35,554 nucleotides of DNA from a virus: positions 1 to 35,554 of the IMG/VR virus record IMGVR_UViG_3300012346_000166. One strand, given 5' to 3'. Below the pieces are notes generated by a model. It ran no database searches. It was given only the letters and a program-made list of their open reading frames with translations, and was not told the DNA's origin. The translations under genes and the position numbers were made by a program. Position 1 is the stretch's first letter, and each line of letters opens with the position of its first letter. Shown in pieces: positions 19,157-35,554 of this stretch.

Positions 19157-19182
19157 TAAAAAAAGCCTACTTATGCAGGCTT
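19157..19182 (-). terminator. Intrinsic terminator overlapping the endolysin stop (AAGCCU/AGGCUU stem plus U7)
   Basis: 6-bp stem 19182..19177 with 19168..19163, 8-nt loop, then UUUUUUU. Confidence 0.65.
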
Positions 19183-19763: not shown

Positions 19764-20075
19764 TTATTCAGCTATATAAATTTTTGTAGGTCTTTTAAAT
19801 TCAAGGTAATTAGAAGCGTCAACATTCCAATCTTCCACATCATCCGTATTTGGTTTTGATTCACATTTAACGGCATAGTGAATTTGACACCCAGCAACAA
19901 TTACATACTTTTCTTCGCTTCCAATTTTAGCAAACCAATTCGTACTTCTTGCATTTGTTTTTATTCCTAAAATTGAATCGTTTACAATTTCAATATTACC
20001 CCATACTGAGTTATAACTTTTGCCATCAGGAGCGATAAACCAAGCGTCAGTTGTTATTAAATATTTTCCTTCCAT
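19764..20075 (-). CDS. Hypothetical protein inside the lysis cassette
   Basis: 103-aa ORF. Confidence 0.6.
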   Translation of the reverse strand: MEGKYLITTDAWFIAPDGKSYNSVWGNIEIVNDSILGIKTNARSTNWFAKIGSEEKYVIVAGCQIHYAVKCESKPNTDDVEDWNVDASNYLEFKRPTKIYIAE

Positions 20076-20079
20076 ATTA

Positions 20080-20556
20080 TCACTTTTTAATTATATAAAA
20101 TAAACTTGCTATAACTCCACGAAGATAAGCACCTAAAACGAAAGCAACAACTAACAGTAAATAGTGATACCATTTAAACGCTTTACTATCTTGTTTATTC
20201 GTTTGCTTAACATACTTAATCTTGTATTTCGTTTGCCATTTAATTTTAGCCTTTTCTACTTTTGTTTTGTAACGATATTCAATTCTAGTTTGCCAACGTG
20301 TTTTAGGTAATTCAATTTCAGGACAAATACATTCTACATTTCGGTAAACTATTGAATCTTTACCATCAATTCCTTTGATTGTATCGGTTATAATTACAGT
20401 ATCACGTTTGTATTCAATCTTACCACCATGCTTAATAAACTTATTATAGCCTTTTTGCGCTTGTTTAGCATCGCTACACGAAGCAAATGATAGTAGAACT
20501 ACAATTGATAGTGTAGATACTATTAGGATTGTTAGGAGTTGGTATATTCTTGACAT
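20080..20556 (-). CDS. Unimolecular spanin candidate (N-terminal lipoprotein signal plus C-terminal TM helix)
   Basis: Lipobox LSFASC after a hydrophobic signal. C-terminal WYHYLLLVVAFVLGAYLRGVIASLFYII. Lies between holin and endolysin. Confidence 0.5.
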   Translation of the reverse strand: MSRIYQLLTILIVSTLSIVVLLSFASCSDAKQAQKGYNKFIKHGGKIEYKRDTVIITDTIKGIDGKDSIVYRNVECICPEIELPKTRWQTRIEYRYKTKVEKAKIKWQTKYKIKYVKQTNKQDSKAFKWYHYLLLVVAFVLGAYLRGVIASLFYIIKK

Positions 20557-20586: not shown

Positions 20587-20808
20587 TTATTTTTCAATTT
20601 TCTTGCTAAATGAATCTGTTATTTTAGAACCAAGTGCAACACCTACTAAAACACACCATACATCGAATCTAAGGCCGTTAAATGCAAAATCAATGGTAGA
20701 CATTACTAAACTTACAAACCATGCAGAAAACATCGTTAAACTAGTTCTGCTAAACTTACCCTCTTTTTTGAGTGTATCGTTAATTATTTGAATTATAATA
20801 TTTTTCAT
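20587..20808 (-). CDS. Holin candidate (two TM segments, 73 aa)
   Basis: I prefer the start MKNIII at 20808. The track start at 20835 lies inside the terminator hairpin. Confidence 0.55.
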   Translation of the reverse strand: MKNIIIQIINDTLKKEGKFSRTSLTMFSAWFVSLVMSTIDFAFNGLRFDVWCVLVGVALGSKITDSFSKKIEK

Positions 20809-20823
20809 TAAACAAACATAATT

Positions 20824-20853
20824 AAAAAACCCCACTTACAAAAATAAATGGGG
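20824..20853 (-). terminator. Intrinsic terminator (CCCCA/UGGGG stem plus U6) separating virion genes from the lysis cassette
   Basis: 5-bp stem 20853..20849 with 20834..20830, 14-nt loop, U6. Confidence 0.5.
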
Positions 20854-21623: not shown

Positions 21624-23225
21624 TTAAGATAATGTTGTTCCTGTTACTGTGAATGTACGGCATCTAAAAGAAAAAGATGTACTTGTTTTACCTCTCGCAT
21701 CTATTCTGTGGTCGCTCCAAGAAACAATTGCAGAAGATGTTGATGAAGCGTAACTTGTAGATGTCCATACAACTGATAAACTTGTTATACTAAAGGGTGA
21801 ATAATTCCATGAAGTAGAAGCGCCATAATTTAAAATAGAAAATGCTTCACCAACATTTGGAATGCGCCATGTATTAAAGCCACCTACACTTAAAGCTGTT
21901 GCATTTGTTAAAGCATTAGTCCATGTTTCAAGAGGAAAAGCACCTTTATACCATCCTAAAACAGTCGATCCATCGTATGTACTCCAATCAATTACAATTC
22001 CGTTTGTATATGTTTGCGTTCCTACTTCGCTTGTAAATCTATTTGTATTTCCGAATGGATTGTTAGCGTTTAAAGTAGTGAAATTTACAAGCCTACCTAT
22101 TTCTAAATCTCCGTCGTCATTTGTTGCGTAACTTGTAGTTTGTCCTGTTTTCATAAGTTTAGCACCTACGGGAATTGTAGCACTAGCAGGTAATACAATA
22201 TCAACCTTATTCAATCCTGCGTTTGGTGTTACAGAAGTTGGTGTTACAGTCGAAGTGCCATCTGTTAATACAATGTTTAACGGTGCAGTTGCATCAATTG
22301 TAAAGTCATTTGTACCGTTTACTGTTATAGCGTTGTCTGCTACTGAATAGTTCGCAGTAGTTCCGCTTGGTATGTTTTGACTATTTATTAAACCGCCGCC
22401 TGTTTTGTTTATGTTTATAGTTGCATCAGGTGCTGAAATGTCAATATCTTTAACGCTAGGATATGCACCTGTATTTACTGTTGTTGCTAAACTGTTTTTT
22501 ACGTTTACATTCATGTCGGGTAATGTCAAACTACCTTCCGCAACAATGTTAGCTGAGTATGTAGCGTCTGAGTTTGATACTGTGGAGTTTTGAATAGTTA
22601 CGTCTAAATTTGCTGTAACATTGCCACTATACAAAGTAGTTAACGCTGTGTTTTTAATCGTATAAGTAAAGGCATCAGTAGTATAAGAATATACACCACC
22701 GCTTTCTACTGTATCAACTAATACACCGTTACGATAAATCTGTACAGGCAAACAACTTGAACCGATTACTTGGTCGAAATCGTAACCGCTCATAGGTAAA
22801 TCACAAATAGAGTTTGAATCTCTAAGCATGAAATTTACTGTCATTATATGACCTGCACAAATATCTGCTTGACTTTCGATAAACTTAGTAACACTACATG
22901 ATTCAACACGCCCCAATAATTGCCAACGTTTTGATTTATTCATAATATTGAATATGTGTCTACAATATTGCAATGTATCACTTTCAACATCATTCAAATT
23001 TGAATAGTCTGTATAAATTTTATCAGCTAAAACAATAGTAATCGGTATTGATGTTTGATTATCTAAGATTGAAGCACTTGGATAGTAAGAAGCCATTAAA
23101 GGATAATTAATAGTTTCTTCGTTTACTGCACGTGCAAAGTCACCCCAAAAGAATGTATGTAACATCAAGTGAGAACTTTGAATATCCGCTAATTCTAGCC
23201 TAAGTTGGTTAACGCTTAACTTCAT
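21624..23225 (-). CDS. Tail fibre / receptor-binding protein with a DUF1566 (Lcl C-terminal, lectin-like) domain
   Basis: KTGQTTSY..DDGDLEIGR...RFT...VIDWST...GGFNTWRIPNVGEAFSIL...WTSTS...RCRTF. Confidence 0.65.
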   Translation of the reverse strand: MKLSVNQLRLELADIQSSHLMLHTFFWGDFARAVNEETINYPLMASYYPSASILDNQTSIPITIVLADKIYTDYSNLNDVESDTLQYCRHIFNIMNKSKRWQLLGRVESCSVTKFIESQADICAGHIMTVNFMLRDSNSICDLPMSGYDFDQVIGSSCLPVQIYRNGVLVDTVESGGVYSYTTDAFTYTIKNTALTTLYSGNVTANLDVTIQNSTVSNSDATYSANIVAEGSLTLPDMNVNVKNSLATTVNTGAYPSVKDIDISAPDATININKTGGGLINSQNIPSGTTANYSVADNAITVNGTNDFTIDATAPLNIVLTDGTSTVTPTSVTPNAGLNKVDIVLPASATIPVGAKLMKTGQTTSYATNDDGDLEIGRLVNFTTLNANNPFGNTNRFTSEVGTQTYTNGIVIDWSTYDGSTVLGWYKGAFPLETWTNALTNATALSVGGFNTWRIPNVGEAFSILNYGASTSWNYSPFSITSLSVVWTSTSYASSTSSAIVSWSDHRIDARGKTSTSFSFRCRTFTVTGTTLS

Positions 23226-23734: not shown

Positions 23735-24991
23735 TTAATTTAATGCTTCAATTATTACATTCATATAAGTTATAGTCACGTCCGATGCGTCTGTGTTGTT
23801 TTCTGTCCACATTTCTATGTAGTCATTTGTGGCTAAAGAAACGATTGTATGAACTGTTACTGATTCGGCACGTGAAGTTGAGTTAGTAGATACATACATT
23901 TCTGAATTAGTTATTACAGCACCATTCTTTGCAACATAAAAACCAACTTGGTCATTTGCAGAAGTCGATGTTACAGAAATAGTTGTTGTAACTTTAAAAC
24001 TTCTAGTAATCGCACCTACATAAGTCGCTCTATTATTAGTATGTGTAAACTTTTGATTGATACTATTTGCAGTAGTAGTTCCTGCTATCTTTAATGGTGT
24101 TGCACTTGAAATAACATTTGTTACAGTCGTATTGTTCAACATATAATAATTAGCCAATTCTGCTGAATTATTAATGCCTTTACAGTTTACAAATAACGCT
24201 TTGTTATCTGTGTACTGAACTCCTGTGTTATAAGTACCGCCACCACCAAAATTCACAGTATCTAATATGTAACTTTCTACGGGGATTGTAGCACTTGTAG
24301 AAACGTTTAACGATGTTTCACCACTCAATGTAACGAATGAACTGTAAATGATTCTAAAACGTCTTGAAACAGTACAAATCGAAGCAATAGTTAAAGCTGT
24401 AGTTCCTGAATAGTTATCAAATAAGCATTGAGAAAATCCAATAGTTCCGATAGTTCCATCAAATGTTAAACCGCCACTATTCAAAAAGGCACTATCAGCC
24501 ATGATGAAGTTTGAATAGTCTTTAATTGTACCAACCGTTGGGCAATCCGTAAAGTTTACACCAAACCAATCTAATGCCGTTGTAGTTCCATCACCATCTA
24601 AGTTCAATGCTACGTTTGCCTCAATTGTTATGTTTCGAATAGGCAAAGAATAGTTAGAAGTTATTAAAGCCGTACCTGTTAAACCTGTTGATTTAATACG
24701 GCAATTTTCAGAACTACCACCGATAATAGTAGTATTCACGCCACCAACTAAACGACTTCCATTTAAGTCAACAATAGACGTTATGAAGTAAGTAACGTTA
24801 TCAGCTAAAGTAATAACACCACTTACTGCGGTAGGTAAATCTGAAACACTAGCAACGAATACAACATCACCACTATCCAATCCACTACCACCAAGAAAGA
24901 TATCACCACTACCAAGAATAGTCGAACCATTGATAGTCTTTATATTACTACCGCTAGTTAGTTTATCTTGTATGTATCTTCTTTGGCTCAT
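23735..24991 (-). CDS. Thr/Ser/Asn-rich beta-helix-like tail fibre or spike protein
   Basis: 418 aa with repetitive short beta-strand-like segments and a G-rich N-terminus. Confidence 0.4.
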   Translation of the reverse strand: MSQRRYIQDKLTSGSNIKTINGSTILGSGDIFLGGSGLDSGDVVFVASVSDLPTAVSGVITLADNVTYFITSIVDLNGSRLVGGVNTTIIGGSSENCRIKSTGLTGTALITSNYSLPIRNITIEANVALNLDGDGTTTALDWFGVNFTDCPTVGTIKDYSNFIMADSAFLNSGGLTFDGTIGTIGFSQCLFDNYSGTTALTIASICTVSRRFRIIYSSFVTLSGETSLNVSTSATIPVESYILDTVNFGGGGTYNTGVQYTDNKALFVNCKGINNSAELANYYMLNNTTVTNVISSATPLKIAGTTTANSINQKFTHTNNRATYVGAITRSFKVTTTISVTSTSANDQVGFYVAKNGAVITNSEMYVSTNSTSRAESVTVHTIVSLATNDYIEMWTENNTDASDVTITYMNVIIEALN

Positions 24992-26862
24992 TTCTTTTTA
25001 ACGGTGATGTGCTGTTGGAACTGGTGGCGACACGAAGGAGTATTAATATCGGTTTCAGGATTATGATACCAACCACCTCTAAACGTCCATACATCACGAC
25101 CAATTGCGCTTGAAATCTTATTTATTTCATCACGTGTGTAAAGTCTTGGTAAGCTAACCATTCTCTCACAAAACGGACGACTAGAACCACCTGCTACTAA
25201 GTCAGGTGCATTCGAACGTAACTCATAAGAATAACGCACTTCTAATTCAGTTGCAGGTACACTCGCTTTTTTACCTTTATCTGTAACTTCCCAATCATTT
25301 ACGAATCCGTTTTCACCTAAAGCAAGTAAACGCTGTGAAATAAAAACACCACCTTTGCCAATTGCTTTAGAAATAGAATCAAAACTTTCTCCATTGTCAA
25401 TCATTTGTAGAATCTGTCTATCAATGTCGGTTAATTCAAAAGCGAATTTTCCCAAGATAAACTCATTCTTAAAACTTTCTTCGTTGTCTTCAAATGAATC
25501 GTAAGCACGTGAATTTAAAATAGTGTATTCGTCTTTAAGTACACCGCATTTTTCAAACATTGAAACAACGTCTATTTCTTCTGACATTTTTTCTTGTGAT
25601 AAAACAGTAGGCGTTGCAGTCGGTACAACATCACCACCTTCGATAGGTTGTAATCTTGCCAACGCACGAATTTCGTTTGTAGTTAATACGTTCAATAATT
25701 TATTTGCAACAAGTGGAGACATTCCATTAATCGCATTTGAAACCGCATTATCTGTTGAAACGTTTTTCTCTAAGTTAAGAACGTAATCATTGAATATAAT
25801 TTTACCTGCAAAACTGTTTAATCTTTTGAATGCCCACGTTAAAGAATCCGCTACAATTGCTTGACGTTTTTTAACGTAGTTTTCTTGGAACAATTTGTAA
25901 GATATTTCTAATTGCTCTTTTGAACCGAATAAAGAATCAGAAACTAAACCAAACAATTCAGCACTAATAACGCTATGTGCCATCATTATCTTTTTAGTAA
26001 TTTCTTTGTTTGATTCTAAGTATCTTTTATCTAGATCGTTTCCATTAATCTGTTGAACTGTTGGTGCTGAATCTTGACCGTCAGAAAAAGTAATTGTCAA
26101 ACCACCTTGTGTTTCTTTTTTAGATGCTTCACCCTTAACTCTACGTATAATTTTATCTTCTTCTGCTACCGTTTCAGGAACTCCATTTGCAAGGTTAATT
26201 AATGTACCGCCTTTGTAAGAATTGACTACCTCTGAATAGGTGAAATAGTCTTGCTCAATTCCTGCAAGTATAGAAGTAATAGCACCTGAATAAGTTGGTA
26301 CAGGATAGTAGTTTGAAGTAAGTGTTTTCTTACCTTCGCCGTGGAATCTTTGCTTTGGTCTTGTAACATTTGTTAAAATACACTCAGTATCTTCAGGTGT
26401 TACATAGTGAATAGACTTAATTTTACGGTAATTCGTCTCTTTTCCTTGTCTTGATTTACTCCAATCGTCCGAATAATCAAAGAAAACAAGGTTTTCAGTA
26501 GCGCGAATTAACTCAAAATCGACGTTTTCGGCGTACCATTTACCACTTGATAACGATTTTTTAAAGATTAGTGAGTAAGTTTCTCCGATTTCAAAGTCAC
26601 GAATAACACTTTCTACCGTACTTTGTAGCGTTTCACCGTGTGCAAATTGTACATTTTGCTCATCACCTTCGATAATTACCCCACCTGCGGTCATAAAAGT
26701 AACCTTTTGGTTGATAATTCCACCGTGAATAGGGTTATCATAAGCTATTCCCACAAGGAATTGAGGGTATAAATTATCTTCACCCCACTTTACATAGCCC
26801 GATTTGTCTATTTTCTCAGTAGGTTCAGGCTTATTAGCTTCACGAAATAGCGTTCGAATCAT
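24988..26862 (-). CDS. Portal protein fused to a winged-helix-like insert and a Mu F / SPP1 gp7-like minor head domain
   Basis: N-terminal GYVKWGEDNLYPQ portal-type start. Residues about 470-530 LTDIDRQILQMIDNGESFDSISKAIG. C-terminal SRPFCERM...TPSCRHQF. Confidence 0.55.
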   Translation of the reverse strand: MIRTLFREANKPEPTEKIDKSGYVKWGEDNLYPQFLVGIAYDNPIHGGIINQKVTFMTAGGVIIEGDEQNVQFAHGETLQSTVESVIRDFEIGETYSLIFKKSLSSGKWYAENVDFELIRATENLVFFDYSDDWSKSRQGKETNYRKIKSIHYVTPEDTECILTNVTRPKQRFHGEGKKTLTSNYYPVPTYSGAITSILAGIEQDYFTYSEVVNSYKGGTLINLANGVPETVAEEDKIIRRVKGEASKKETQGGLTITFSDGQDSAPTVQQINGNDLDKRYLESNKEITKKIMMAHSVISAELFGLVSDSLFGSKEQLEISYKLFQENYVKKRQAIVADSLTWAFKRLNSFAGKIIFNDYVLNLEKNVSTDNAVSNAINGMSPLVANKLLNVLTTNEIRALARLQPIEGGDVVPTATPTVLSQEKMSEEIDVVSMFEKCGVLKDEYTILNSRAYDSFEDNEESFKNEFILGKFAFELTDIDRQILQMIDNGESFDSISKAIGKGGVFISQRLLALGENGFVNDWEVTDKGKKASVPATELEVRYSYELRSNAPDLVAGGSSRPFCERMVSLPRLYTRDEINKISSAIGRDVWTFRGGWYHNPETDINTPSCRHQFQQHITVKKK

Positions 26863-27229
26863 AAATATCTGTATTTGTATCTACATTAAATGTAGGAATT
26901 TCCTCTTCTGTTGGTTCAATTAGTCGCATCTTACCGATTTCTACTAGATGACCTAGTGTTTCATCTGTACTGCCACCGTTTGGCATTTGATAAACTTGAT
27001 ATTCATAGTCGCCTATTGAACGAAATGTTACATCTGTACCTTCTATAAGTGTAAAAAGGTTGTAACTATTAACCGATTGTGATACATCAGTTAAATATAA
27101 TTTGTATTGATATTCACTAGATTGCTCTAATGTAAAAACGAATAGCCAATTACTTGGTAGTTCGCTTTGGCTTAACTCGCTTAACGTTAACGCTATTGGG
27201 TTTGATTGCCCTTGTCTTAATAGTATCAT
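26840..27229 (-). CDS. Hypothetical virion-module protein
   Basis: 129-aa ORF between the tube-like and portal genes. Confidence 0.55.
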   Translation of the reverse strand: MILLRQGQSNPIALTLSELSQSELPSNWLFVFTLEQSSEYQYKLYLTDVSQSVNSYNLFTLIEGTDVTFRSIGDYEYQVYQMPNGGSTDETLGHLVEIGKMRLIEPTEEEIPTFNVDTNTDIYDSNAIS

Positions 27230-27321
27230 CTTCGATTAAACCTTTTTTAATTAATAGCGGTTTGTTTTCCTTATTGTTTTCAATAAGTCCTAAACCTTTG
27301 ACAAATATTTTTTCCATAGTT

Positions 27322-27353
27322 AGAAAAATAAAGGGAGTGTATTTCAACTCCCT
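27322..27353 (-). terminator. Intrinsic terminator or attenuator directly after the tube-like gene
   Basis: 7-bp stem 27353..27347 with 27338..27332 (AGGGAGU/ACUCCCU), 8-nt loop, then UUAUUUUUC. Confidence 0.55.
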
Positions 27354-27360
27354 AAATTAT

Positions 27361-27891
27361 TTAAGATGCTGGTTCTAACAATGCATCAACAATAGCTGAA
27401 GAAATTTTACAAGCTTTTAATTTCTCTTTACCTGTTAACGTCAATGTGTTACCATTCATGTCTTCGTATTTTGTACCTACTGCACGCTCGTCTAATACCT
27501 TAGCACCGTTCTCAGCGAATAACAACTCATACGTTCCATCGTTACATTTTGCAATTGCACTAACACGACCTTGACAAAGTTGTTCAATCATAGTAATCAT
27601 TTCGGCTGTATTACCGTGCGCTACAATCGTTGCTGATTGTTCACGTGCATACGCTTTATTTGCTCTATCACCTACTGCCTTGTCTGTAAAAGTCGATGTT
27701 TCCATTTCAACATTGAACGGATAAGCGTACTTACCCGTTACTAATGTTAATGCAGAAACTTGACCATTTGCGATCGTGAGCGTATCAATATTACTTGTAC
27801 CTGTGCTATCTTTAGTAGCGAACAAGTACCACGTTTCAACACCACCTTGAGTGTCGCACAACGCATTATATCCTGAAGTTAACTCACACAT
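27361..27891 (-). CDS. Major tail (tube)-like protein
   Basis: 176 aa directly after the MCP gene. GGVETWYLF start and the NGNTLTLTGKE end are typical of tube proteins (by eye). Confidence 0.45.
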   Translation of the reverse strand: MCELTSGYNALCDTQGGVETWYLFATKDSTGTSNIDTLTIANGQVSALTLVTGKYAYPFNVEMETSTFTDKAVGDRANKAYAREQSATIVAHGNTAEMITMIEQLCQGRVSAIAKCNDGTYELLFAENGAKVLDERAVGTKYEDMNGNTLTLTGKEKLKACKISSAIVDALLEPAS

Positions 27892-27902
27892 ATTCTATAA
27901 AA

Positions 27903-28877
27903 TTAAGATGTAGCTAATGCTAATTTAGTGAAGTATTGAGGGAATACATAAGAAACACCTGAACGCCATTTTACACCGAAGCGTAATTTTTCGTCATTCT
28001 CATTGTATTTAAACTCAAACCCTTCGAAATCACCTTCCAAATCTGTACCAAAGAACATATAATCGTAAGGTACCGCATACATTTTAGAAGTACCATTCAA
28101 TTGAGAATAAGCACGAACACGAATGTTAGTAGTTGGTAAAATGAATGAAGGTTCAACTCCTGCCTCTTCTGAAATTGTGTAGTTGTAGTTGTTATCGTTG
28201 TAGTTTTGCTCAATGATTTTTCTGAATGTTTCACGACCTACGATAATTTCAACGTTAACACCGTTATCAAATAATACAGGGTCAATAGTATTGTACAATC
28301 CTAATGCAACATCCAATGCGTTTGTATTATCTAAAGCTGTTTCAGTTGAAGTGTATGTAATTAAACCCGCATCAGCATCCCACAATTTAATAAATCCATC
28401 GTAGTGTGCTAATGAAGGAACTAAAGATGTTGTATCACCTTTGAACATCAAATCTTGGTTAGCTTTAGCCGCTTTCTTAACGTAGTAAGATGCCATGATG
28501 TCAGAGAATGGAGCTTCTTGGTCTTGACGATTAGCACCTGCCGCATTCATCAACTGCGCCCAAGTTCCATTCAAGTCTTCATTACAATACTCTTCTTGAA
28601 TTTTAACACGCTCAGTAGTTAAAGTTTCGTTAGTCAAAACAATACCACCTGAAGCATTCCATCCACAAGATGAAGCCGCCTGTACAACTGGTGCTGATTC
28701 CAACAATTTAATTTTCTCTGAACCTTTTACGCCTTCCATTACAGAAATACGTGATGTTAACCCTGCATTGTAAACCAAGTCAGTTAACATATTAGTTGAT
28801 TGCTCATCTGTGTATGATGCTAAACCTGACACATCATAAGCAAATCGGTCTTTTACAATTTGATCTAGTTTTTTCAT
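27903..28877 (-). CDS. Major capsid protein (HK97-fold type)
   Basis: 324 aa directly after the protease-scaffold gene; composition and length are typical. Confidence 0.65.
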   Translation of the reverse strand: MKKLDQIVKDRFAYDVSGLASYTDEQSTNMLTDLVYNAGLTSRISVMEGVKGSEKIKLLESAPVVQAASSCGWNASGGIVLTNETLTTERVKIQEEYCNEDLNGTWAQLMNAAGANRQDQEAPFSDIMASYYVKKAAKANQDLMFKGDTTSLVPSLAHYDGFIKLWDADAGLITYTSTETALDNTNALDVALGLYNTIDPVLFDNGVNVEIIVGRETFRKIIEQNYNDNNYNYTISEEAGVEPSFILPTTNIRVRAYSQLNGTSKMYAVPYDYMFFGTDLEGDFEGFEFKYNENDEKLRFGVKWRSGVSYVFPQYFTKLALATS

Positions 28878-29956
28878 TTTGTTTCTTTTAGTAAGTCTTT
28901 ATAACTTTTTGTTTTTTGCTCTTCAACTTTCTTAGGATTTGCACCGAACTTTCCTGAAGATTTGAAAGTTTCGATTTCCGCTTTTAGTGTTTCGTTTTCT
29001 TTTGTAATTGCTGTGAACTTAGCTTCAAATTCTGCGAACTTAGCATCAACACCTTTAATTGTTTTTGCTAATACTTCCGCAACTTCTGCGCTTAATTCTG
29101 TTGGTACTTCTTCAGTAGCTTCTTCCATTGCATCTACAATAGAAACAATTGCACCTGTACCATCCAACGTTACAACTTTCACCGTACCATCTTCTAGTGT
29201 CAATTGATGCTCTCCTTCAGGTGCAGGAACTTTAACACCATCTAACTCGATTGTTAGTAAAGTGCCTTCTGCTAATTCACCTTCGTAAAACACAACTGTA
29301 CCTTCAGCGGTAGTAGCTTCAGAAAACGTAACTTCTTCTGTTGTTGCAACCTCAGGATTGTCATTAAACATATCCTTCATGATTTGCAAAAGCGATTTGT
29401 CTTGTTTACTCATCTTTGTTTTAACTTTAATTTGTTTTTTTTCGAACCATCCTTCAACAGAGAAGCCAACGAACTTGCCGCTTTTCACATCGTCCCACAA
29501 CACATTATCTTCAACGTAATACGAAGCAATCCAACTGCCATCTTGCAGATTCATTTGTTTAAATGCTTCAGGAACGTTTGGAAGTTTCGGGTCGCTATTT
29601 GAAACTATGTAAGAATCAATTAACGTAGCACCTTTTATTACGTCTTTGGAATTGTGTTGTTTGTTTACGTTTTGAATAAATCCGTTTTTAAAGAATTTTC
29701 TACGTATAAGGTCAATCGTTGGTGCATCAAATACAACATAATGCTCGCCCATGTCAGGCGAATTTCTGTATATTGGAGTACCTGCCGAAATCATTACACC
29801 TGTAACAATTCTTTTTTCTTCGTTAAATTCGTAACGTACTTGGTTTTTACCGAAAGCAATAAAGGCTTTCATGTGAGCAGGAGCATCGACAAAGGAATTA
29901 AAATCAATTCCCGTTTCGTCATTTTCGTTAACTACTATTTTGAAAAATGGTAACAT
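28874..29956 (-). CDS. XkdF-like prohead protease domain fused to an acidic coiled-coil scaffold-like domain
   Basis: N-terminal FVDAPAH...GFSVEGWF (XkdF family pattern); C-terminal half is rich in E, A, T and K. Confidence 0.55.
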   Translation of the reverse strand: MLPFFKIVVNENDETGIDFNSFVDAPAHMKAFIAFGKNQVRYEFNEEKRIVTGVMISAGTPIYRNSPDMGEHYVVFDAPTIDLIRRKFFKNGFIQNVNKQHNSKDVIKGATLIDSYIVSNSDPKLPNVPEAFKQMNLQDGSWIASYYVEDNVLWDDVKSGKFVGFSVEGWFEKKQIKVKTKMSKQDKSLLQIMKDMFNDNPEVATTEEVTFSEATTAEGTVVFYEGELAEGTLLTIELDGVKVPAPEGEHQLTLEDGTVKVVTLDGTGAIVSIVDAMEEATEEVPTELSAEVAEVLAKTIKGVDAKFAEFEAKFTAITKENETLKAEIETFKSSGKFGANPKKVEEQKTKSYKDLLKETK

Positions 29957-29982: not shown

Positions 29983-32064
29983 TTATCCGACCGTAGCAAT
30001 ACTTAATGTATTAGCTGTTTGGTTTTGTTTTGCTGTGATTTCTGAATCAACTACAAAGACTTTTCCTGCATTTGATTTAGGTGCTTCATTTCCTATTCCA
30101 CTTGTTAAAGTTGTTTGAGCGTTTGCAAGTTGTGGATTTGGAATGTTAGGTGCTGTTGTTGGTGGGCTAACTGAACCACCTCCAGCACTACCTACACCAC
30201 CACCACCACCACCGTACTGAGTACTAGCAATTTTAGCAATGTTAGCCGATGAAGTAATAGCCGCCGCACCTGCATACACCGCCGCAGTTGCAGGACCTAA
30301 TAATGGGATAGGGTTTTGCATACCGTTTCTAAATGCGGCAATAGTTGTCTGAATACCATCAATAGTTGCAGTAGCTAAACTTAAAGCCTTAGCAACTTTG
30401 AATTGTCGTCTTGCTCTTTGGTCTTTACTCTTTTCATCTTGTGCCCCAAAACGATTAGCAACTGCGAACACACCCTCGGCTAAATCATTTAAAGACTTAG
30501 CACCCATTTGTGCAATCTGAACTTTTGCATCGTTTAGCTTTCTATGGTCTTCTAGTATTTGAGCGTTTGTTTCTTGTTCTGATTTGATTCGGTTACTAAG
30601 TATTAAAGCGTCTGCGGCTTCTTTATCCCATTGTAATTGTTGTGCTTGTTCGTCCTTTAATGCTTGTGCTTCTTTTGCTAGTGTTTCTTGTTCAGCTTTC
30701 CACGCTTCTTCGTCTAATAACATTTGACGTTCAGCATCTTGCTTAGATTTATAAGCATCTAGTTCTTGTTGGTTTTTATCCTTTTGAATTTCGATTGCTT
30801 TATCCGCTTCTGCTTTTGCTTCATCGCTTCTTTCTTTAGCAAGGTCTTTCTTTTCCTGATTAAGTTTTGCTTCTGCTACTTCAATCGTATTAAGTGAATC
30901 CTCAGCCGCTGAAACCATATCTTGAAACGATTGTTCAAATATTTCGTTTCCTTGCATTCGACCTTTCATGTACTTCGCAAATGCTACGTTTGCTTCTGCT
31001 TCTTGCTTTTGAAGTTTGATTTTTTCTTCACGCAATGCAATAGTACTTTTCCCTTCAGCTTCTAGTAACGCAATTTTTCTATCAATGCCTTTAATATTTT
31101 CTTCACGTGCTTTTGCTTCTTCATCTAATTGGCGAATATGCTTTTCATGGTTTTCAGCTTGTACTGCACTTGCTTTTCTACTTGCTTCTGTTGTACCTGT
31201 AAATAGATCGTATAACTTTTGCAACGATTTAATAGTAATCGTAATTGGAAAAAACGCAACCTCTAAAGCTGTCTTAATTACCTTACTTGCTTCTGGGTAT
31301 TTATTAGCAAATGACTTGTAAGCATCTTGAAACTTAGCACTAACTTCTGTGGCTTTAGTTTTCAGTTTATCAAAGTTCGCTACTACTGCACCTAAAGCAA
31401 CAATAAACAAACCAATACCTGTTGACGCTAAGGCAATCTTAAATAACTTCATTGCACCTGTTGACGTACCAACCACCGTAGCATAAGCACCTGTTGCCGT
31501 TGTAAGTAACCAAGTTTGTAAAGTCTTAGCCTTTTGCATCAAGAATGATTCCTTTTCTAAAGCCCCACGTATTTCTTCAAGTGATGCCAAAACAGCTTGA
31601 ACGGCTTGCAACTTAACAAGTGATTTAGTAAGGTTTTCATTCTCTTGACCTAATAACGCTTGAACTCCCGTTAACGCACCGTAACCCGCTGTTATTGTAG
31701 AACCTAATTGAAGTGCCGCTTTCATTCTAGCACCATCAGTACCGAGGTTATTAATCTCAGTCTTTAAGTCGCCTAACTTATCTTTTAATTCCCCCGCACG
31801 TTGTAACGCTTCTTTACCTATTGGACTTTCTCGACCTGCTTGTAGTGCGATTGTTTGGTATTGCTTAATAGCTTGCGTACTTTCACGCATTGACATCGTA
31901 CCACTTTCAACACGTTTATTAAGGTCATCAAAGGTTTTATTTAAGTCATTACTAGTATTCTTAGTAGTGCCATCAATGTTCTTTAATTCCTTATCAATTG
32001 CTTGTAAATCGTTTGCAGTTGTACCCGTGTCGACTGAGGTCTTAAAAATTATTTCTTCTGCCAT
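29983..32064 (-). CDS. Tape-measure-like protein (coiled coils, central hydrophobic segments, Gly-rich C-terminus)
   Basis: 693 aa. TM-like TGIGLFIVALGAVVA, long heptad regions, GGGGGGVGSAGGG. Confidence 0.5.
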   Translation of the reverse strand: MAEEIIFKTSVDTGTTANDLQAIDKELKNIDGTTKNTSNDLNKTFDDLNKRVESGTMSMRESTQAIKQYQTIALQAGRESPIGKEALQRAGELKDKLGDLKTEINNLGTDGARMKAALQLGSTITAGYGALTGVQALLGQENENLTKSLVKLQAVQAVLASLEEIRGALEKESFLMQKAKTLQTWLLTTATGAYATVVGTSTGAMKLFKIALASTGIGLFIVALGAVVANFDKLKTKATEVSAKFQDAYKSFANKYPEASKVIKTALEVAFFPITITIKSLQKLYDLFTGTTEASRKASAVQAENHEKHIRQLDEEAKAREENIKGIDRKIALLEAEGKSTIALREEKIKLQKQEAEANVAFAKYMKGRMQGNEIFEQSFQDMVSAAEDSLNTIEVAEAKLNQEKKDLAKERSDEAKAEADKAIEIQKDKNQQELDAYKSKQDAERQMLLDEEAWKAEQETLAKEAQALKDEQAQQLQWDKEAADALILSNRIKSEQETNAQILEDHRKLNDAKVQIAQMGAKSLNDLAEGVFAVANRFGAQDEKSKDQRARRQFKVAKALSLATATIDGIQTTIAAFRNGMQNPIPLLGPATAAVYAGAAAITSSANIAKIASTQYGGGGGGVGSAGGGSVSPPTTAPNIPNPQLANAQTTLTSGIGNEAPKSNAGKVFVVDSEITAKQNQTANTLSIATVG

Positions 32065-32087
32065 GTGTTTTGTATTGAATTATTTAA

Positions 32088-32095
32088 TACGTTTG
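32088..32095 (+). promoter_or_regulatory. -7 box TACGTTTG on the plus strand, upstream of the lipoprotein gene
   Basis: 23 nt before the ATG at 32119; TTTG at 32069..32072. Confidence 0.4.
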
Positions 32096-32118
32096 TATTA
32101 TAAACAAATAAATTAATT

Positions 32119-32430
32119 ATGAAAAAGGTATTGTTATTATCAGTTATTGCTTTGGCATCTTGTAGAAAATTCAAATTTGAAAATAAAATACAAGGTACAT
32201 GGCAAATGAAAGAAATCAAATTACATGACCAAAGTGTTTGGTTTAACGTTCCATCAAATGAACAAGCGGTTACCATTACAAAAGATAGCGTTTCGAATCC
32301 TTGGAGCGATAAGTATATGATTGTAGACAAACATACAATTGTAATAAACAACACTTTTATAGATGTTGACATCAAAAAAAATAGTATGTTGTGGGTTTCC
32401 AATGGTGATTCGATTAAATTTGTACGTTAA
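32119..32430 (+). CDS. Lipoprotein (lipocalin-like), the only plus-strand gene; candidate superinfection-exclusion or receptor-masking moron
   Basis: Signal peptide MKKVLLLSVIALASC with lipobox LASC; GTWQMKEI motif. Its stop overlaps the stop of the convergent fibre-tip gene. Confidence 0.7.
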   Translation: MKKVLLLSVIALASCRKFKFENKIQGTWQMKEIKLHDQSVWFNVPSNEQAVTITKDSVSNPWSDKYMIVDKHTIVINNTFIDVDIKKNSMLWVSNGDSIKFVR

Positions 32431-32936
32431 TATTTTATAACAGTAATTGAACAACCTGCAACTAAAACACCATTTGCAGAAGCACCCAAATATTGAGAAT
32501 CAAGAAATAATGTATTAGCGTCTAATATACCGAAACCACATTGATTATCTAAACTTCCTAATGGTAGGTTAGCGTGAACTTCTAAAGGCGCAACCAAATT
32601 ACCCGCAAACCCTGAAATAGTATAACCGCCTACACCTAAATAGTTGGGTGTGGCTGTTATACCTAAAGAGTTTTCAATAACAGTTAAAGATGGTGCGCTT
32701 GTTCCTGTTTGTGTTATTAACGCTTTCCAAATAGACTGCGCTTTACGTCCATCTGACATTTGAATTATACTACCATTCCTCGTATAAGTCAACCCCGTAT
32801 CAGTGTCCATGTAAAATTCACCATCGTAAATATCGGTAGCTATCCAATCGCCATTACGGTGGTCAGTACTTGCAGGAATTGTAGGAACTCCTGAACCCAT
32901 TTTAATCTGTCTTCTTTCAAATTTATCTTGACACAT
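32427..32936 (-). CDS. Tail fibre tip / receptor-binding candidate
   Basis: GSGVPTIPASTDHRNGDWIATDIYDGEFYMDTDTG is a motif recurrent in Bacteroidota phage fibres. Possible alternative start at 32900. Confidence 0.45.
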   Translation of the reverse strand: MCQDKFERRQIKMGSGVPTIPASTDHRNGDWIATDIYDGEFYMDTDTGLTYTRNGSIIQMSDGRKAQSIWKALITQTGTSAPSLTVIENSLGITATPNYLGVGGYTISGFAGNLVAPLEVHANLPLGSLDNQCGFGILDANTLFLDSQYLGASANGVLVAGCSITVIKY

Positions 32937-32940
32937 ATTT

Positions 32941-35202
32941 TTATCCTTTACTTAAATTACTATAAATTAAAACGGTATCTTTTCCACCGCTTGAAACTCC
33001 TGTATCTATTCCAACACCAACAGGACTGCTAGCCATTCCAACACTAACAGGTGCTATTCTTGGTATTGTTAAATTTTGTCTATTCTTTTTCTTTGCCTTT
33101 AATACTTTAATCAATTCGATCTGCGTGCTATCTTCTGATTCGGGTGCAAATTCATTTACTTCATTCAATCGAAATAATGCACCGTTCACCATTAAGAATT
33201 TACTAAAGTCTAAATTCCTTACATCAAGTGCTTTCCAATATACGTATAACTTTACAATTTGTCCTGCTCTGTTTGTCATTTCATTAACAAAATCAAAGTA
33301 GTACGTACTGTAACAGTTGTTAGTCGTTATCTTATTTGCTACATAATACAATTCGTTTGTAAGCTGAAAAGATAAATCAAATGTAGGTGTATTCCAATTA
33401 TTGAAATGATGAATACAAGGATAAGTAGTTAGTACTTCTTGACCTGTTCCAACCGTATCTTTAAAAGTCCATGAACCCGTTTTACTTCCATTACGGAAAC
33501 AGATAATTGGATCCCCTTGATTCATTTTAACCGTGTTGTTTTCAATCTTAATAAATCGAGGTACTAAAATTCCTGTTGATACTTCATAAGGTATAATTGT
33601 AGCCCACGTTAAATCGACTTTGTAATCACCTTTAGCATAGTAACTACCTTGAACTTGGTTTAAGTTGTTGTATTCAACCTGCCACTTATTAAAGTATTGC
33701 TCAAAATCGTAGTGGCTTTGTTTCTTAAATTGAAATAAAATATTCTTTTTAAACTCATTTGCACTTGGTCGAATCTGAATTTCTTTATCGTTATCAACAA
33801 TATCTGTAATATCTGTGAATACACTTGTTTGTTGGTAGTAATCGCTTAACGGTTCAATCTTACATACGCCACTTTCTGAAGGGTCTGATATGTACAAATT
33901 AAATTGACGAATACAGTTTAACATAAAATCGCTACACTTCATAGAAGGTAAGAAACGACTTAACAAAATAGTATCACCATCCGTTGCATTCGTATCAATA
34001 CTTACAAAGTCAATTGTAATTGGGCTTGATTCTGTAAGTGTTAAAGTCGCACTTGTATCTGTGTTATCTAAAAGCGTTAATTGCCCTGTGTCAAAAGTAA
34101 AATCTATTACATCGCCTGATTGACATTCCAATTCAAAAGTAGAATCTAAAATGATTGTACCTGTCATTGAAGTATAAACTAAATTCCCATCCGTTGCAAC
34201 CGTAGCGACTACACCGTTTTTGTTTATGTTTAGTTTTAATCCTTTATAGTTGTCTATTGTACCGCTTGGTGTTGTAATTGTATAATCTAATTCTAAGCCT
34301 ATTGTCATTTGATAACGTCCTGAACGTTGTACGGTGATAGTACCGTTATCATGTTGACTGTAATTATCTGTAACCTCAGTAAAGGTAGAAGTAGATGAAC
34401 TAAACGCATTTAGAATAGGCAACCAAATTAAAAGCCTGATTCCATTACCAAGTAACTCGGTAGCACTATAAATCGCAGTAGCGTCAAACGTTCCATTTGT
34501 TAATTCAATGCGTCTATTTTCAACATCAGCTGGTGCAATGGTTTTAATCTCACCGCCACCATATCCAAACAGTATATTTTTGAACTGTGAACTATCTAAA
34601 AAATCAGAATCCCAAGTCAATCCAACTAATTCAAAGCACTTAAGCAAGGTTTCACGCACATAAACATACGGTACTAAGTCGGTAGTATTCCAAATTGTAG
34701 CACCTAAACGAGGTCTTCTGTCAATTAATGGGTAATAATATCCACTTCCTGCCGTTGCAGTCCATGAATTTTTGATGTTTGTACGGTTTAAAGTGTGATT
34801 ATACGTACTCCAATCCAACTCACTTACCATAATATTCTGTAACAATAGAAAAATATCTACTGATTCTGAGAATATTTGACATTTATAGCTTGGTATTCCA
34901 TCGTTTATTACAACAGAATTTAGTTTAATCAGTCCTTTTAGTACAACTACACCACGTTTTTTAAGTACAATATCAGCTTTTGCAGTAGCGTCAAAGTTTA
35001 CTATACTATCATTTGAGGTTAATCTGAATGAACCTGCAAAGAAAGCGTTATTATTCATAGTTGCAGGTAGCGTAATTTCTTTCGAATAAGACTTTTTACG
35101 CTTGCTTGGTTCTTTAACGTCTGCTATTGCATAGCTTACAGGGATGGGTATAGTGTCAGATATATCTAAACTATACCCGTTTGAGATTAATTCATCCGTC
35201 AT
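32941..35202 (-). CDS. Large tail/baseplate structural protein (Tal-like)
   Basis: 753-aa ORF in the tail module, ATGA-coupled to the upstream gene. Confidence 0.4.
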   Translation of the reverse strand: MTDELISNGYSLDISDTIPIPVSYAIADVKEPSKRKKSYSKEITLPATMNNNAFFAGSFRLTSNDSIVNFDATAKADIVLKKRGVVVLKGLIKLNSVVINDGIPSYKCQIFSESVDIFLLLQNIMVSELDWSTYNHTLNRTNIKNSWTATAGSGYYYPLIDRRPRLGATIWNTTDLVPYVYVRETLLKCFELVGLTWDSDFLDSSQFKNILFGYGGGEIKTIAPADVENRRIELTNGTFDATAIYSATELLGNGIRLLIWLPILNAFSSSTSTFTEVTDNYSQHDNGTITVQRSGRYQMTIGLELDYTITTPSGTIDNYKGLKLNINKNGVVATVATDGNLVYTSMTGTIILDSTFELECQSGDVIDFTFDTGQLTLLDNTDTSATLTLTESSPITIDFVSIDTNATDGDTILLSRFLPSMKCSDFMLNCIRQFNLYISDPSESGVCKIEPLSDYYQQTSVFTDITDIVDNDKEIQIRPSANEFKKNILFQFKKQSHYDFEQYFNKWQVEYNNLNQVQGSYYAKGDYKVDLTWATIIPYEVSTGILVPRFIKIENNTVKMNQGDPIICFRNGSKTGSWTFKDTVGTGQEVLTTYPCIHHFNNWNTPTFDLSFQLTNELYYVANKITTNNCYSTYYFDFVNEMTNRAGQIVKLYVYWKALDVRNLDFSKFLMVNGALFRLNEVNEFAPESEDSTQIELIKVLKAKKKNRQNLTIPRIAPVSVGMASSPVGVGIDTGVSSGGKDTVLIYSNLSKG

Positions 35203-35554
35203 AATGAAATACCGTTATGTGCGTTCGTATATTCAAAAGCTACTGATTCAGAAATTAACTCTTCGAATCTGTCTTGTTGGAAACTGAATTGATTAGTAGT
35301 GATTTTAATTGAATCCACTACACCATCAACGTCAATTAAGTAATGTCTTGGTGATTTATATAATTCACATAGCCAACGTTGCATTGATTGTGTAATGTAG
35401 CTTGTGTAAATAACTCCTTTATCTTTTTGCTTTGTACCTACTCTTAAAGTTCCTGCTGAATTTAGATCGTACTCAAATGAAGTTCCATTCCATTGCCCGA
35501 ACTGTTTACCGTATGTTTGTTCTTTTACTTCGCCACTTTGTTCTAGGTTATGCT
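35199..35554 (-). CDS. C-terminal part of the same junction-spanning 372-aa protein (unique part 35199..35499)
   Basis: The frame is open from 35554 down to the TGA at 35201..35199. That stop overlaps the ATG of the next gene (ATGA). Confidence 0.8.
   Translation of the reverse strand, partial: HNLEQSGEVKEQTYGKQFGQWNGTSFEYDLNSAGTLRVGTKQKDKGVIYTSYITQSMQRWLCELYKSPRHYLIDVDGVVDSIKITTNQFSFQQDRFEELISESVAFEYTNAHNGISL
35500..35554. repeat. Second copy of the 55-nt terminal identity
   Basis: Identical to nt 1-55. Confidence 0.95.

What the first reader, a model, noticed from the sequence alone, without database searches (positions are those of the whole stretch)
32065..32430. Lone opposite-strand lipoprotein gene inserted next to the fibre-tip gene
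Every other gene is on the minus strand. ORF 32119..32430 on the plus strand encodes a 103-aa protein with a textbook lipoprotein signal (MKKVLLLSVIALASC) and a lipocalin-like GTWQ motif. It has its own TACGTTTG box (32088..32095). It converges on the 169-aa fibre-tip/receptor-binding candidate with overlapping stops (TTAA at 32427..32430). It is antisense to late transcription between the fibre and tape-measure-like genes.

The layout recalls phage T5 Llp, a lipoprotein encoded beside the receptor-binding protein gene. Llp masks the receptor to block superinfection and to stop progeny being inactivated by cell debris.
Basis: partly seen in the sequence, partly recalled or inferred. Interest (0 to 1): 0.65.

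Follow-up and report, generated by a model that had tools for sequence, protein, structure and literature searches.

The report
Phage lipoprotein paired with swappable tail tip
A probable Flavobacteria-type phage carries a small, separately transcribed lipoprotein gene that is exchanged as one unit with the variable tip of a neighbouring tail protein, which suggests, without proving, that it blocks the phage's own receptor as T5 Llp does, using an unrelated protein.

Summary
ORF 32119..32430 (+) is a real gene under purifying selection (dN/dS 0.07-0.43). It encodes a 103-aa lipoprotein (lipobox LASC, Cys15) and is the only sizeable plus-strand gene in a circular ~35.5-kb phage genome.

It has a Bacteroidota-type -7 promoter box (TAnnTTTG) 31 nt upstream. 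That box recurs upstream of the homologous genes in diverged relatives. Its stop overlaps that of the 169-aa gene.

The main new result is a swap cassette. In phages ~90-94% identical on both flanks, window ~32140..32770 is replaced as one block. This block holds the mature lipoprotein and the C-terminal two-thirds of the 169-aa protein. Two unrelated lipoprotein families pair with two unrelated C-terminal types. A different phage backbone carries the same tip-lipoprotein pair. More distant relatives have no gene at this junction.

Homologues are few, all metagenomic, and phage-borne wherever context could be read. None turned up in pattern scans of 185,579 reference genomes.

The protein is not homologous to Llp; only the signal peptide aligns. 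The model is a small beta-barrel with weak lipocalin-like matches. A separate spanin-like lipoprotein sits in the lysis cassette.

Best reading: a receptor-masking, superinfection-exclusion lipoprotein analogous to Llp/Cor (~0.5). Function and the receptor-binding role of the 169-aa protein remain inferred.

The parts
32065..32118 (.). 54-bp divergent intergenic region between the start of the tape-measure-like gene (-) and the start of the lipoprotein gene (+)
   Evidence: Read from the sequence. The 70 bases shown upstream of the ATG are identical in L001/L002/L005. The 80 bases shown are identical or near-identical in the family-B loci L019/L062/L095.
32088..32095 (+). TACGTTTG, an instance of the Bacteroidota-type -7 promoter box TAnnTTTG, starting 31 nt upstream of the ATG
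   Evidence: Position. A TAnnTTTG box lies 21-31 nt upstream of the ATG in 11 of 16 related lipoprotein genes (15 of them convergent with the putative receptor-binding gene), even where the spacer sequence has diverged. The motif is enriched in sense orientation in intergenic gaps, 7 against 1.04 expected. That TAnnTTTG is the Bacteroidota -7 consensus is from my own knowledge.
32119..32430 (+). Gene for a 103-aa lipoprotein precursor (family A); the mature protein is about 88 aa and modelled as a small beta-barrel
   Evidence: Sequence. dN/dS 0.07-0.43. AlphaFold2 mean pLDDT 88.6, one short helix and eight beta-strands. Family alignment.
32119..32163 (+). Signal peptide with lipobox LASC; lipidated Cys15 codon at 32161..32163. 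Residues +2 to +6 are R-K-F-K-F, which lack the Bacteroidota surface-export signal
   Evidence: Sequence. The Cys is invariant in 27 members. The export-signal definition C-X-K-(D/E)2 is from PMC5080379.
32140..32770 (.). Swap cassette: the lipoprotein from about codon 8 to its stop, plus the C-terminal ~115 residues of the 169-aa protein, exchanged together between close relatives
   Evidence: Against L019/L062/L095, flanks are 89-94% identical; homology ends at 32139 and resumes at 32759-32772. Against L001, identity falls from about 93% to 55-70% over ~32200..32720.
32427..32936 (-). Gene for the 169-aa putative receptor-binding (tail-tip) protein. The N-terminal ~65 aa are conserved (encoded at about 32740..32936); the C-terminal ~100 aa are variable
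   Evidence: 147 homologues, many covering only the N-terminal 46-73% of the query. Alignment A2 shows at least two unrelated C-terminal types. The model has pLDDT 83 and no significant PDB match.
29983..32064 (-). Gene for the 693-aa tape-measure-like protein, transcribed divergently from the lipoprotein gene. In relatives without the insert its start overlaps the stop of the putative receptor-binding gene
   Evidence: phrog_9483 at 9.3e-10. The gap between the two genes is -1 bp in most surveyed loci.
32941..35202 (-). Gene for a 753-aa protein upstream of the putative receptor-binding gene; syntenic in all relatives, function unassigned
   Evidence: Synteny. No Pfam, PHROG, GenBank-phage or PDB-sequence match.

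Best explanation
The gene encodes a phage lipoprotein that most likely acts on the cell envelope against further adsorption or injection by phages using the same receptor. This is superinfection exclusion and protection of progeny from cell debris, as with T5 Llp and the Cor proteins.

Proposed sequence of events:
1. The gene is transcribed from its own Bacteroidota-type promoter, against the direction of the structural operon. Probably this happens before late transcription runs through it.
2. The precursor is exported, lipidated at Cys15 and sorted to the outer membrane. It lacks the acidic surface-export signal, so it should stay on the periplasmic face.
3. There its small beta-barrel domain binds the outer-membrane receptor that the C-terminal domain of the 169-aa tail protein recognises, and makes it unusable.

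Shown: the gene is real, is a lipoprotein, carries a conserved promoter box, is accessory, is phage-restricted, and is exchanged as one unit with the variable C-terminal domain of the neighbouring protein.

Inferred: expression timing, membrane topology, the receptor-binding role of the 169-aa protein, and receptor masking itself.
For: 1. Lipoprotein signal with an invariant Cys, and purifying selection.
2. Own TAnnTTTG box, recurring at 21-31 nt upstream in 11 of 16 related genes. The motif is genuinely promoter-associated in this genome.
3. Cassette behaviour. Mature lipoprotein and the C-terminus of the 169-aa protein are replaced together between phages with 89-94% identical flanks. The breakpoints lie in the signal-peptide codons and at the domain junction of the 169-aa protein.
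4. Type-level pairing. C-terminal type A occurs with family-A lipoprotein or with none. Type B occurred with the unrelated family-B lipoprotein in 7 of 7 loci.
5. A different backbone (L007/L008) has a different N-terminal anchor and sits next to the portal gene. It carries the same type-A tip with a convergent family-A lipoprotein.
6. Accessory status. In about 45 of 70 surveyed loci the two flanking genes abut with nothing between them. This excludes an essential assembly role.
7. The adjacent tape-measure-like protein stays 97% identical while the mature lipoprotein drops to about 43-44%. The lipoprotein's variation therefore does not track that protein.
8. Phage-only distribution. There are 26 representatives among 1.84 billion clusters, all metagenomic. 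Every locus whose context I read was phage-like, and distant members sit at the end of baseplate/tail-fibre blocks. Pattern scans of 185,579 genomes found none.
9. Precedent. Virulent phages encode Llp/Cor at the receptor-binding-protein locus, and Llp acts from the periplasmic side (PMC9586334; PMC11990801).
10. No integrase or repressor was detected and no prophage copies were found. This fits the virulent-phage case.
Against: - There is no experimental evidence of any kind.
- The receptor-binding role of the 169-aa protein has no homology or fold support. The genome also has other tail-fibre candidates: the 418-aa gene, which is variable too, and the 533-aa gene.
- Fine-scale co-variation is weak. 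Mantel r=0.48, p=0.011 with 8 taxa, but this includes a near-identical pair. With 5 taxa r=-0.04. Joint replacement could partly reflect physical linkage.
- One family member (L009) lies in an early-gene region away from any tail gene.
- The protein is not related to Llp.
- Periplasmic topology rests only on the absence of a surface-export motif.
Confidence: 0.5

Rival explanations
1. It is a generic envelope 'moron': a lipoprotein that alters host physiology or protects against unrelated phages or stresses, as lambda Bor is thought to. It would have no specific link to this phage's receptor and would sit at a recombination-prone junction next to a variable tail gene purely by linkage.
For: It is accessory and present in a minority of relatives. 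Fine-scale co-variation with the C-terminus of the 169-aa protein is inconclusive. One homologue sits in an early-gene region. A weak homologue lies at the edge of a prophage-like block. Structural matches are to generic Bacteroidota lipocalin-like lipoproteins and the protease inhibitor potempin E.
Against: Two unrelated lipoprotein families each pair with one C-terminal type at the same junction; type B did so in 7 of 7 loci. The tip-lipoprotein pair moves together onto a different backbone. Distant members again sit by baseplate/tail-fibre genes. No lysogeny genes were found, so a prophage-style fitness moron fits this phage poorly.
Confidence: 0.2
2. It blocks DNA entry rather than adsorption, by interfering in the periplasm with the incoming tape-measure or ejection protein. 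This would resemble the lipoprotein Ltp of Streptococcus phage TP-J34.
For: The gene is head-to-head with the tape-measure-like gene and shares a 54-bp control region with it. It is a lipoprotein that probably faces the periplasm. The Ltp mechanism is cited from my own knowledge.
Against: The tape-measure-like protein stays 97% identical between window and L001 while the mature lipoprotein falls to about 43-44%. The cassette boundary excludes the tape-measure-like gene and includes the C-terminus of the 169-aa protein. L007 keeps the tip-lipoprotein pair with no ORF of tape-measure size beside it; the next ORFs on that side are 220, 262 and 287 aa.
Confidence: 0.1
3. It is a surface-exposed decoy or shield that binds the incoming tail tip directly, or covers the receptor from outside, rather than acting from the periplasm.
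For: It is exchanged together with the tip domain. Some distant family members carry an export-signal-like C-X-K-(D/E)2 motif: P0138, P0141, P0145 and P0146.
Against: The members encoded next to the putative receptor-binding gene have C-[RGSA]-K-F-K-F-E-N-K or close variants of it, with no acidic pair at +3 to +5.
Confidence: 0.1
4. It is a lysis protein: an outer-membrane spanin component.
For: Weak PHROG hit to Rz-like spanin, E=0.055, covering only the signal peptide.
Against: The lysis cassette is about 12 kb away. It has an endolysin (19171..19740), a holin-like 82-aa protein, and a 158-aa protein with both a lipobox and a C-terminal membrane segment, which is the architecture of a single-component spanin. 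The gene is absent from most relatives. No partner inner-membrane spanin gene is adjacent.
Confidence: 0.03

Closest known systems
T5 Llp (lytic conversion lipoprotein) next to oad/pb5
   Same: A small phage lipoprotein encoded directly beside the putative receptor-binding gene, on the opposite strand, with its own promoter, in a phage without detectable lysogeny genes. Llp acts from the periplasmic face of the outer membrane (PMC9586334), and this protein also lacks a surface-export signal.
   Different: No homology: only the signal peptide aligns. Llp's mature form is 62 aa and has an internal disulphide. This one is about 88 aa with no Cys beyond the lipid-anchor Cys15, and is modelled as an eight-stranded beta-barrel. 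In T5 the two genes are divergent, with back-to-back promoters. Here they are convergent with overlapping stops. The host phylum also differs (Bacteroidota-type signals against Enterobacteria).
Cor lipoproteins of T1, phi80, N15 and related siphoviruses
   Same: Exclusion lipoproteins encoded at the receptor-binding-protein locus downstream of the central tail fibre gene, varying with receptor specificity (PMC11990801; PMC9586334).
   Different: Cor belongs to the Llp-related family (about 20% identity to Llp, PMC9586334). I did not compare a Cor sequence directly. The present family matches no Pfam or NCBIfam model above threshold and no PHROG family at E<=0.001.
Bacteroidota lipocalin-like small lipoproteins (for example BACUNI_01346 4qrl, BACEGG_01585 5byp) and Tannerella potempin E (8ehd)
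   Same: Best, but weak, structural matches: TM-score 0.48-0.60 and E 0.0085-0.22. A small beta-barrel behind a lipoprotein signal.
   Different: Sequence identity is 9-14% and no match reaches E<=0.001. Those are cellular proteins. This family was found only in phage contexts.
Phage 'morons' (independent transcription units inserted between genes that are adjacent in related phages)
   Same: Own promoter, opposite strand, and inserted exactly where the flanking genes abut in relatives.
   Different: No intrinsic terminator was found. The phage shows no lysogeny module. The insert is coupled to a swap of the neighbouring gene's C-terminal domain, which is not part of the moron concept. The concept itself is cited from my own knowledge.

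Membership tests
Llp/Cor superinfection-exclusion lipoprotein family | Sequence homology of the mature domain to Llp or Cor | tested here: not met
   hhalign of the family profile A3 against T5 Llp aligns only 24 signal-peptide columns. A profile search of PDB sequences gave no Llp hit at E<=1; I assume the FhuA-Llp entry of PMC9586334 is in that copy. Cor itself was not compared.
Llp/Cor superinfection-exclusion lipoprotein family | Small mature protein with a conserved intramolecular disulphide (Cys11-Cys58 in Llp, PMC9586334) | tested here: not met
   The mature protein is about 88 aa and has no Cys apart from the lipid-anchor Cys15. Llp's mature form is 62 aa.
Llp/Cor superinfection-exclusion lipoprotein family | Lipoprotein signal peptide with lipobox | tested here: met
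   MKKVLLLSVIALASC with lipobox LASC; the Cys is invariant in 27 members.
Llp/Cor superinfection-exclusion lipoprotein family | Encoded adjacent to the receptor-binding protein gene | tested here: inconclusive
   It is adjacent to, and exchanged together with, the variable C-terminus of a modular 169-aa protein. That protein's receptor-binding role has no homology or fold support.
Llp/Cor superinfection-exclusion lipoprotein family | Blocks the phage's own outer-membrane receptor | not testable with these tools
   This needs expression in the host, adsorption assays and identification of the receptor.
Lipocalin-like domain proteins (Pfam Lipocalin_8, PF16585, and relatives) | Score at or above the Pfam gathering threshold | tested here: not met
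   16.2 bits against a cut-off of 27.2, E=0.015, over residues 11-38 only. Only 3 of 27 members give any hit.
Lipocalin-like domain proteins (Pfam Lipocalin_8, PF16585, and relatives) | Eight-stranded antiparallel beta-barrel fold | tested here: inconclusive
   The AlphaFold2 model (pLDDT 88.6) has one short helix and eight strands. Foldseek's best hits are lipocalin-like proteins but at E>=0.0085 and TM-score 0.45-0.60.
Spanins (outer-membrane or single-component) | Located in the lysis cassette, with a partner inner-membrane spanin or a C-terminal membrane segment | tested here: not met
   The gene is about 12 kb from the endolysin and has no C-terminal membrane segment. A separate 158-aa protein at 20080..20556 has the single-component spanin architecture.
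Moron (independent transcription unit inserted into a phage operon) | Flanking genes adjacent in related phages; own promoter | tested here: met
   The gap between the two flanking genes is -1 bp in most of the 70 surveyed loci. A TAnnTTTG box recurs upstream of the gene.
Moron (independent transcription unit inserted into a phage operon) | Own terminator | tested here: not met
   No terminator-like site follows the stop codon. The stop overlaps the convergent gene.

The most novel reading that the evidence does not exclude
Phages of Bacteroidota carry a previously undescribed host-range and self-exclusion cassette. A fixed 'expression and export platform' (promoter plus signal peptide) and a fixed virion-anchor domain flank a ~0.63-kb exchangeable block. 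That block encodes both the receptor-binding tip and its matching receptor-blocking lipoprotein, so one recombination event changes receptor specificity and exclusion specificity together. At least two unrelated lipoprotein folds have been recruited to this role. The lipoprotein could then serve as a handle for identifying Bacteroidota phage receptors, which might be TonB-dependent or SusC-like transporters.
Probability: 0.35. Interest if true: 0.8.

Novelty: new variant of a known kind. Interest (0 to 1): 0.6.

Why it matters
**If the reading is right.** My two literature searches for a receptor-masking exclusion lipoprotein in Bacteroidota or Flavobacterium phages found no primary report. 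The protein family here is unrelated to Llp/Cor.

**Evolutionary point.** The receptor-binding tip and its cognate blocker would be inherited as one recombination module. That would explain how phages can switch receptors without losing self-exclusion.

**Practical use.** The lipoproteins could be used as baits, by pull-down or by co-folding, to identify receptors of marine and fish-pathogen Flavobacteriia phages. They could also help predict cross-exclusion groups from sequence.

**If the reading is wrong.** The cassette structure is still a clear, testable example of modular exchange with breakpoints inside two coding sequences.

Tried and rejected
- **Nucleotide and protein searches of GenBank phages.** No match for the locus, the lipoprotein, the 169-aa protein or the 753-aa protein. 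Only the terminase matched: 56% identity to Flavobacterium psychrophilum phages.
- **Family libraries.** Pfam, PHROGs and NCBIfam gave nothing above threshold for the lipoproteins or the 169-aa protein.
- **PDB sequence searches.** None significant for A3, A2 or the 753-aa protein.
- **Foldseek.** No hit at E<=0.001 for either model. A confident fold assignment, and structural support for 'fibre tip', were therefore dropped.
- **Fine-scale co-variation.** With 5 taxa r=-0.04. With 8 taxa Mantel r=0.48, p=0.011, but this set includes a near-identical pair. I treat the result as inconclusive and do not count it as support.
- **Reference genome scans.** Nothing found for the lipoprotein or the 169-aa family. 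These are pattern-based, so sensitivity is limited. One attempt with the broad alignment failed for lack of a conserved stretch.
- **The exact 8-mer TACGTTTG as a special motif.** Not enriched. Replaced by the general TAnnTTTG reading.
- **A late-sense promoter for the tape-measure-like gene inside the lipoprotein gene.** Present only in window and L090, not conserved.
- **An intrinsic terminator after the lipoprotein gene.** None found.
- **Spanin hypothesis.** Rejected.
- **First locus survey.** It undercounted lipoproteins because upstream in-frame ATGs masked the true start. It was redone.

Full report
**1. The observation**

The window has a 55-bp identical terminal overlap, so it is a circular assembly of about 35,499 bp. 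Its ends join colinearly in relatives.

All ORFs of any length that tile the genome are on the minus strand. ORF 32119..32430 (+) is the only plus-strand ORF of at least 50 aa that lies 99% outside minus-strand ORFs. It fills the 362-bp gap 32065..32426.

It encodes MKKVLLLSVIALASC-RKFKFENKIQGTWQ... (103 aa), with a canonical lipobox (LASC) and Cys15. TACGTTTG is at 32088..32095, and the two stop codons share TTAA at 32427..32430. So the described features are all present at the stated coordinates.

**2. Is it a real gene?**

Six close homologues at 55-98% identity were found among 5.8 billion proteins. All come from metagenomes. A profile search of 1.84 billion cluster representatives gave only 26 hits. 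Apart from three much longer proteins that matched only over short internal stretches, they are 75-133 aa, and the 22 whose sequences I retrieved are all lipoproteins of 95-133 aa with an invariant Cys and a conserved GxW motif (mostly IQGTW).

Across ten homologous genes, dN/dS is 0.07-0.43 in every pair where synonymous sites were not saturated. The closest pair (window against L090) gives 0.07. The plus-strand frame is therefore under purifying selection.

**3. Promoter**

The exact 8-mer is not enriched: 5 found against 2.2 expected. TAnnTTTG is also not enriched genome-wide: 57 against 58.5.

In the intergenic gaps of the minus-strand operons, however, sense-oriented TAnnTTTG occurs 7 times against 1.04 expected. 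None of 2000 shuffles reached 7. TAnnTTTG is the -7 element of Bacteroidota promoters (my own knowledge), so the motif is a genuine promoter signal in this genome.

A TAnnTTTG box lies 21-31 nt upstream of the ATG in 11 of 16 related lipoprotein genes, 15 of which are convergent with the 169-aa gene. This includes loci whose spacer has diverged. Three others show one-mismatch variants.

No late-sense box is conserved inside the gene, and no terminator follows it. Late transcription probably reads through the gene in antisense. That suggests temporal separation of the two transcripts, which is an inference.

**4. Genome and host context**

| Feature | Evidence |
|---|---|
| Terminase | 56% identical to Flavobacterium psychrophilum phages |
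| G+C content | 33% |
| Head module | Portal, head protease and small terminase identified |
| Endolysin | 19171..19740 |
| Lysogeny genes | No integrase or repressor detected |
| Prophage copies | No relative of the 169-aa protein in pattern scans of 185,579 reference genomes |

This fits a virulent phage of Flavobacteriia or another Bacteroidota host.

The 693-aa neighbour has a modest tape-measure PHROG hit at 9e-10. The 753-aa and 169-aa proteins match nothing described.

**5. The 169-aa neighbour**

It belongs to a large family: 147 hits, typically on contigs of 34-42 kb. Many hits cover only the N-terminal 46-73% of the query.

The alignment shows a nearly invariant N-terminal ~65 residues (GSGVPTIPASTDHRNGDWIATDIYEGE...). 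The C-terminal ~100 residues are variable, with at least two unrelated types:
- Type A: WKALITQTGTSAP...ITKY
- Type B: ENFANADLT...YKTATGELRIKL

This is the architecture expected of a modular receptor-binding protein. It is the only evidence for that role. The AlphaFold2 model (pLDDT 83) has no significant PDB match.

**6. The key result: a swap cassette**

Against L001, which is about 93% identical over the backbone, identity falls to 55-70% between ~32200 and ~32720. This stretch covers the mature lipoprotein and the C-terminal ~100 residues of the 169-aa protein.

Against L019, L062 and L095, flanks are 89-94% identical. Homology stops at 32139, which is codon 7 of the lipoprotein gene. It resumes at 32759-32772, which is about codon 55-59 of the 169-aa gene.

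In those phages the block is replaced by a type-B C-terminus plus a 112-aa lipoprotein. That lipoprotein's mature part is unrelated to family A; only the signal peptide aligns. A 124-aa variant is distantly related to the 112-aa one, at 26% identity and E=2e-12. The promoter region and the first signal-peptide codons are the same sequence in both cassette types.

All seven type-B loci examined carry a convergent gene of 112-124 aa. The six I translated begin with a lipoprotein signal.

**7. Other contexts**

- **L007/L008.** This is a different phage. Its tail protein has a different N-terminus (MAEVRISELTA...), and its gene lies one gene (166 aa) away from the portal gene. It has a type-A C-terminus and, again, a convergent family-A lipoprotein.
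- **L096 and L097.** Distant family-A members at 26-30% identity sit co-directionally at the end of baseplate/tail-fibre blocks. These phages are unrelated and have a lambda-type portal and a ClpP protease.
- **L009 (exception).** A member lies in an early-gene region.
- **L011 (exception).** The family-A domain, from 'QGTW' onward, is fused to an unrelated N-terminus in a rearranged or chimeric contig.
- **P0157.** This weak homologue (E=5.8e-4) lies at the edge of a prophage-like block in a 205-kb contig.

**8. Accessory status**

Of 70 complete loci of the 169-aa family from IMG/VR, about 45 have its stop overlapping the start of the tape-measure-like gene, with nothing between. Eight carry a convergent lipoprotein. 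The gene is therefore an insertion of the moron type and is not needed to assemble the tail protein.

**9. Structure and family membership**

The AlphaFold2 model (pLDDT 88.6) has a short helix followed by eight strands. Foldseek gives only weak hits, E>=0.0085 and TM-score 0.45-0.60. They are to Bacteroidota lipocalin-like lipoproteins, potempin E and viral 'lipocalin-like' proteins. Pfam Lipocalin_8 is below threshold.

T5 Llp shares only the signal peptide. In T5, llp (110429..110662, +) is divergent from oad/pb5 (108427..110349, -), not convergent with it. The protein is therefore an analogue candidate of Llp, not a member of its family.

**10. Topology**

Residues +2 to +6 are R-K-F-K-F, or G/S/A-K-F-K-F and close variants in relatives. 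They lack the C-X-K-(D/E)2 surface-export signal of Bacteroidota (PMC5080379). This predicts retention on the periplasmic face of the outer membrane, as shown experimentally for Llp (PMC9586334). Some distant members do carry such a signal.

**11. Rivals**

- **Spanin.** Rejected. The lysis cassette about 12 kb away already contains a 158-aa protein with a lipobox and a C-terminal membrane segment.
- **Injection blocker acting on the tape-measure-like protein.** Disfavoured, because that protein stays 97% identical while the lipoprotein diverges.
- **Generic moron linked only by position.** Cannot be excluded. Quantitative co-variation is inconclusive: r=-0.04 with 5 taxa. With 8 taxa r=0.48 and p=0.011, a set that includes a near-identical pair.

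**12. Verdict**

The most likely function is receptor masking or superinfection exclusion specific to the receptor of the co-swapped tail tip (about 0.5). It would be carried out by a new phage lipoprotein family, in a new cassette arrangement, in a phylum where my two literature searches found no primary report of such a system. All functional steps remain to be tested.

Noticed in passing
window 20080..20556 (-): This 158-aa protein has an N-terminal lipobox (LSFASC, Cys27) and a C-terminal membrane segment, which is the architecture of a single-component spanin. It lies between a holin-like 82-aa gene (20587..20835) and the endolysin (19171..19740), with a 103-aa gene of unknown function (19764..20075) in between.
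   Followed up: partly
window 1..55 and 35500..35554: The first and last 55 bases are identical, so the window is a circular assembly of a complete genome of about 35.5 kb. A 372-aa gene spans the junction: 35199 to the end, continuing from base 1 to about 818.
   Followed up: yes
window 23735..24991 (-): This is a second variable locus. The 418-aa gene has a C-terminal tail-fibre PHROG hit. Window 23745..24905 has no nucleotide match in the ~93% identical relative L001, which has 285-aa and 81-aa genes there instead. It may be a second host-range determinant.
   Followed up: partly
window 21624..23225 (-): The L001 homologue of this 533-aa protein carries an Lcl_C (PF07603) domain. I read it as another possible fibre or adhesin candidate, downstream of the portal and 418-aa genes.
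   Followed up: no
window 29983..32064 and 24988..29956 (-): The gene order is unusual. In transcription order it runs: 753-aa, 169-aa, tape-measure-like, head protease, 324-aa putative capsid protein, two small genes (176 and 129 aa), then portal. The 'tape measure' may instead be an internal or ejection protein of a short-tailed phage.
   Followed up: no
window 16366..16597: This 232-bp gap in minus-strand coding holds a 61-aa TTG-start ORF on the plus strand (16342..16527) and no TAnnTTTG box. It may be a regulatory region or an origin.
   Followed up: no
L011 4507..5046 (-): A convergent 179-aa ORF has the family-A lipoprotein domain as its last ~80 residues, starting exactly at 'QGTW'. 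Its N-terminus is unrelated and has no signal peptide, and no tape-measure-like gene follows. The contig is either rearranged or an assembly chimera. The breakpoint coincides with the cassette boundary seen against L001.
   Followed up: partly
L009 757..1071 (+): A family-A lipoprotein (104 aa) lies in an early or replication-type gene block, co-directional with its neighbours. It is followed by an 88-aa protein that looks membrane-embedded. No tail gene is nearby.
   Followed up: partly
window 11010..11879 (-) and 2142..3280 (-): Auxiliary genes: a PAPS-reductase-like gene (phrog_424), and a glycosyltransferase-like plus a methyltransferase-like pair located between the packaging and tail genes.
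   Followed up: no
window 32049..32402 (-), also L012-L014, L091, L092: A long antisense ORF overlaps the lipoprotein gene. In the window it is 117 aa (32049..32402). In the relatives it is 87-101 aa and begins 'MVFFLTSI...'. It confused the first locus survey. I take it to be a non-coding shadow frame of the lipoprotein gene, whose own frame shows purifying selection.
   Followed up: partly
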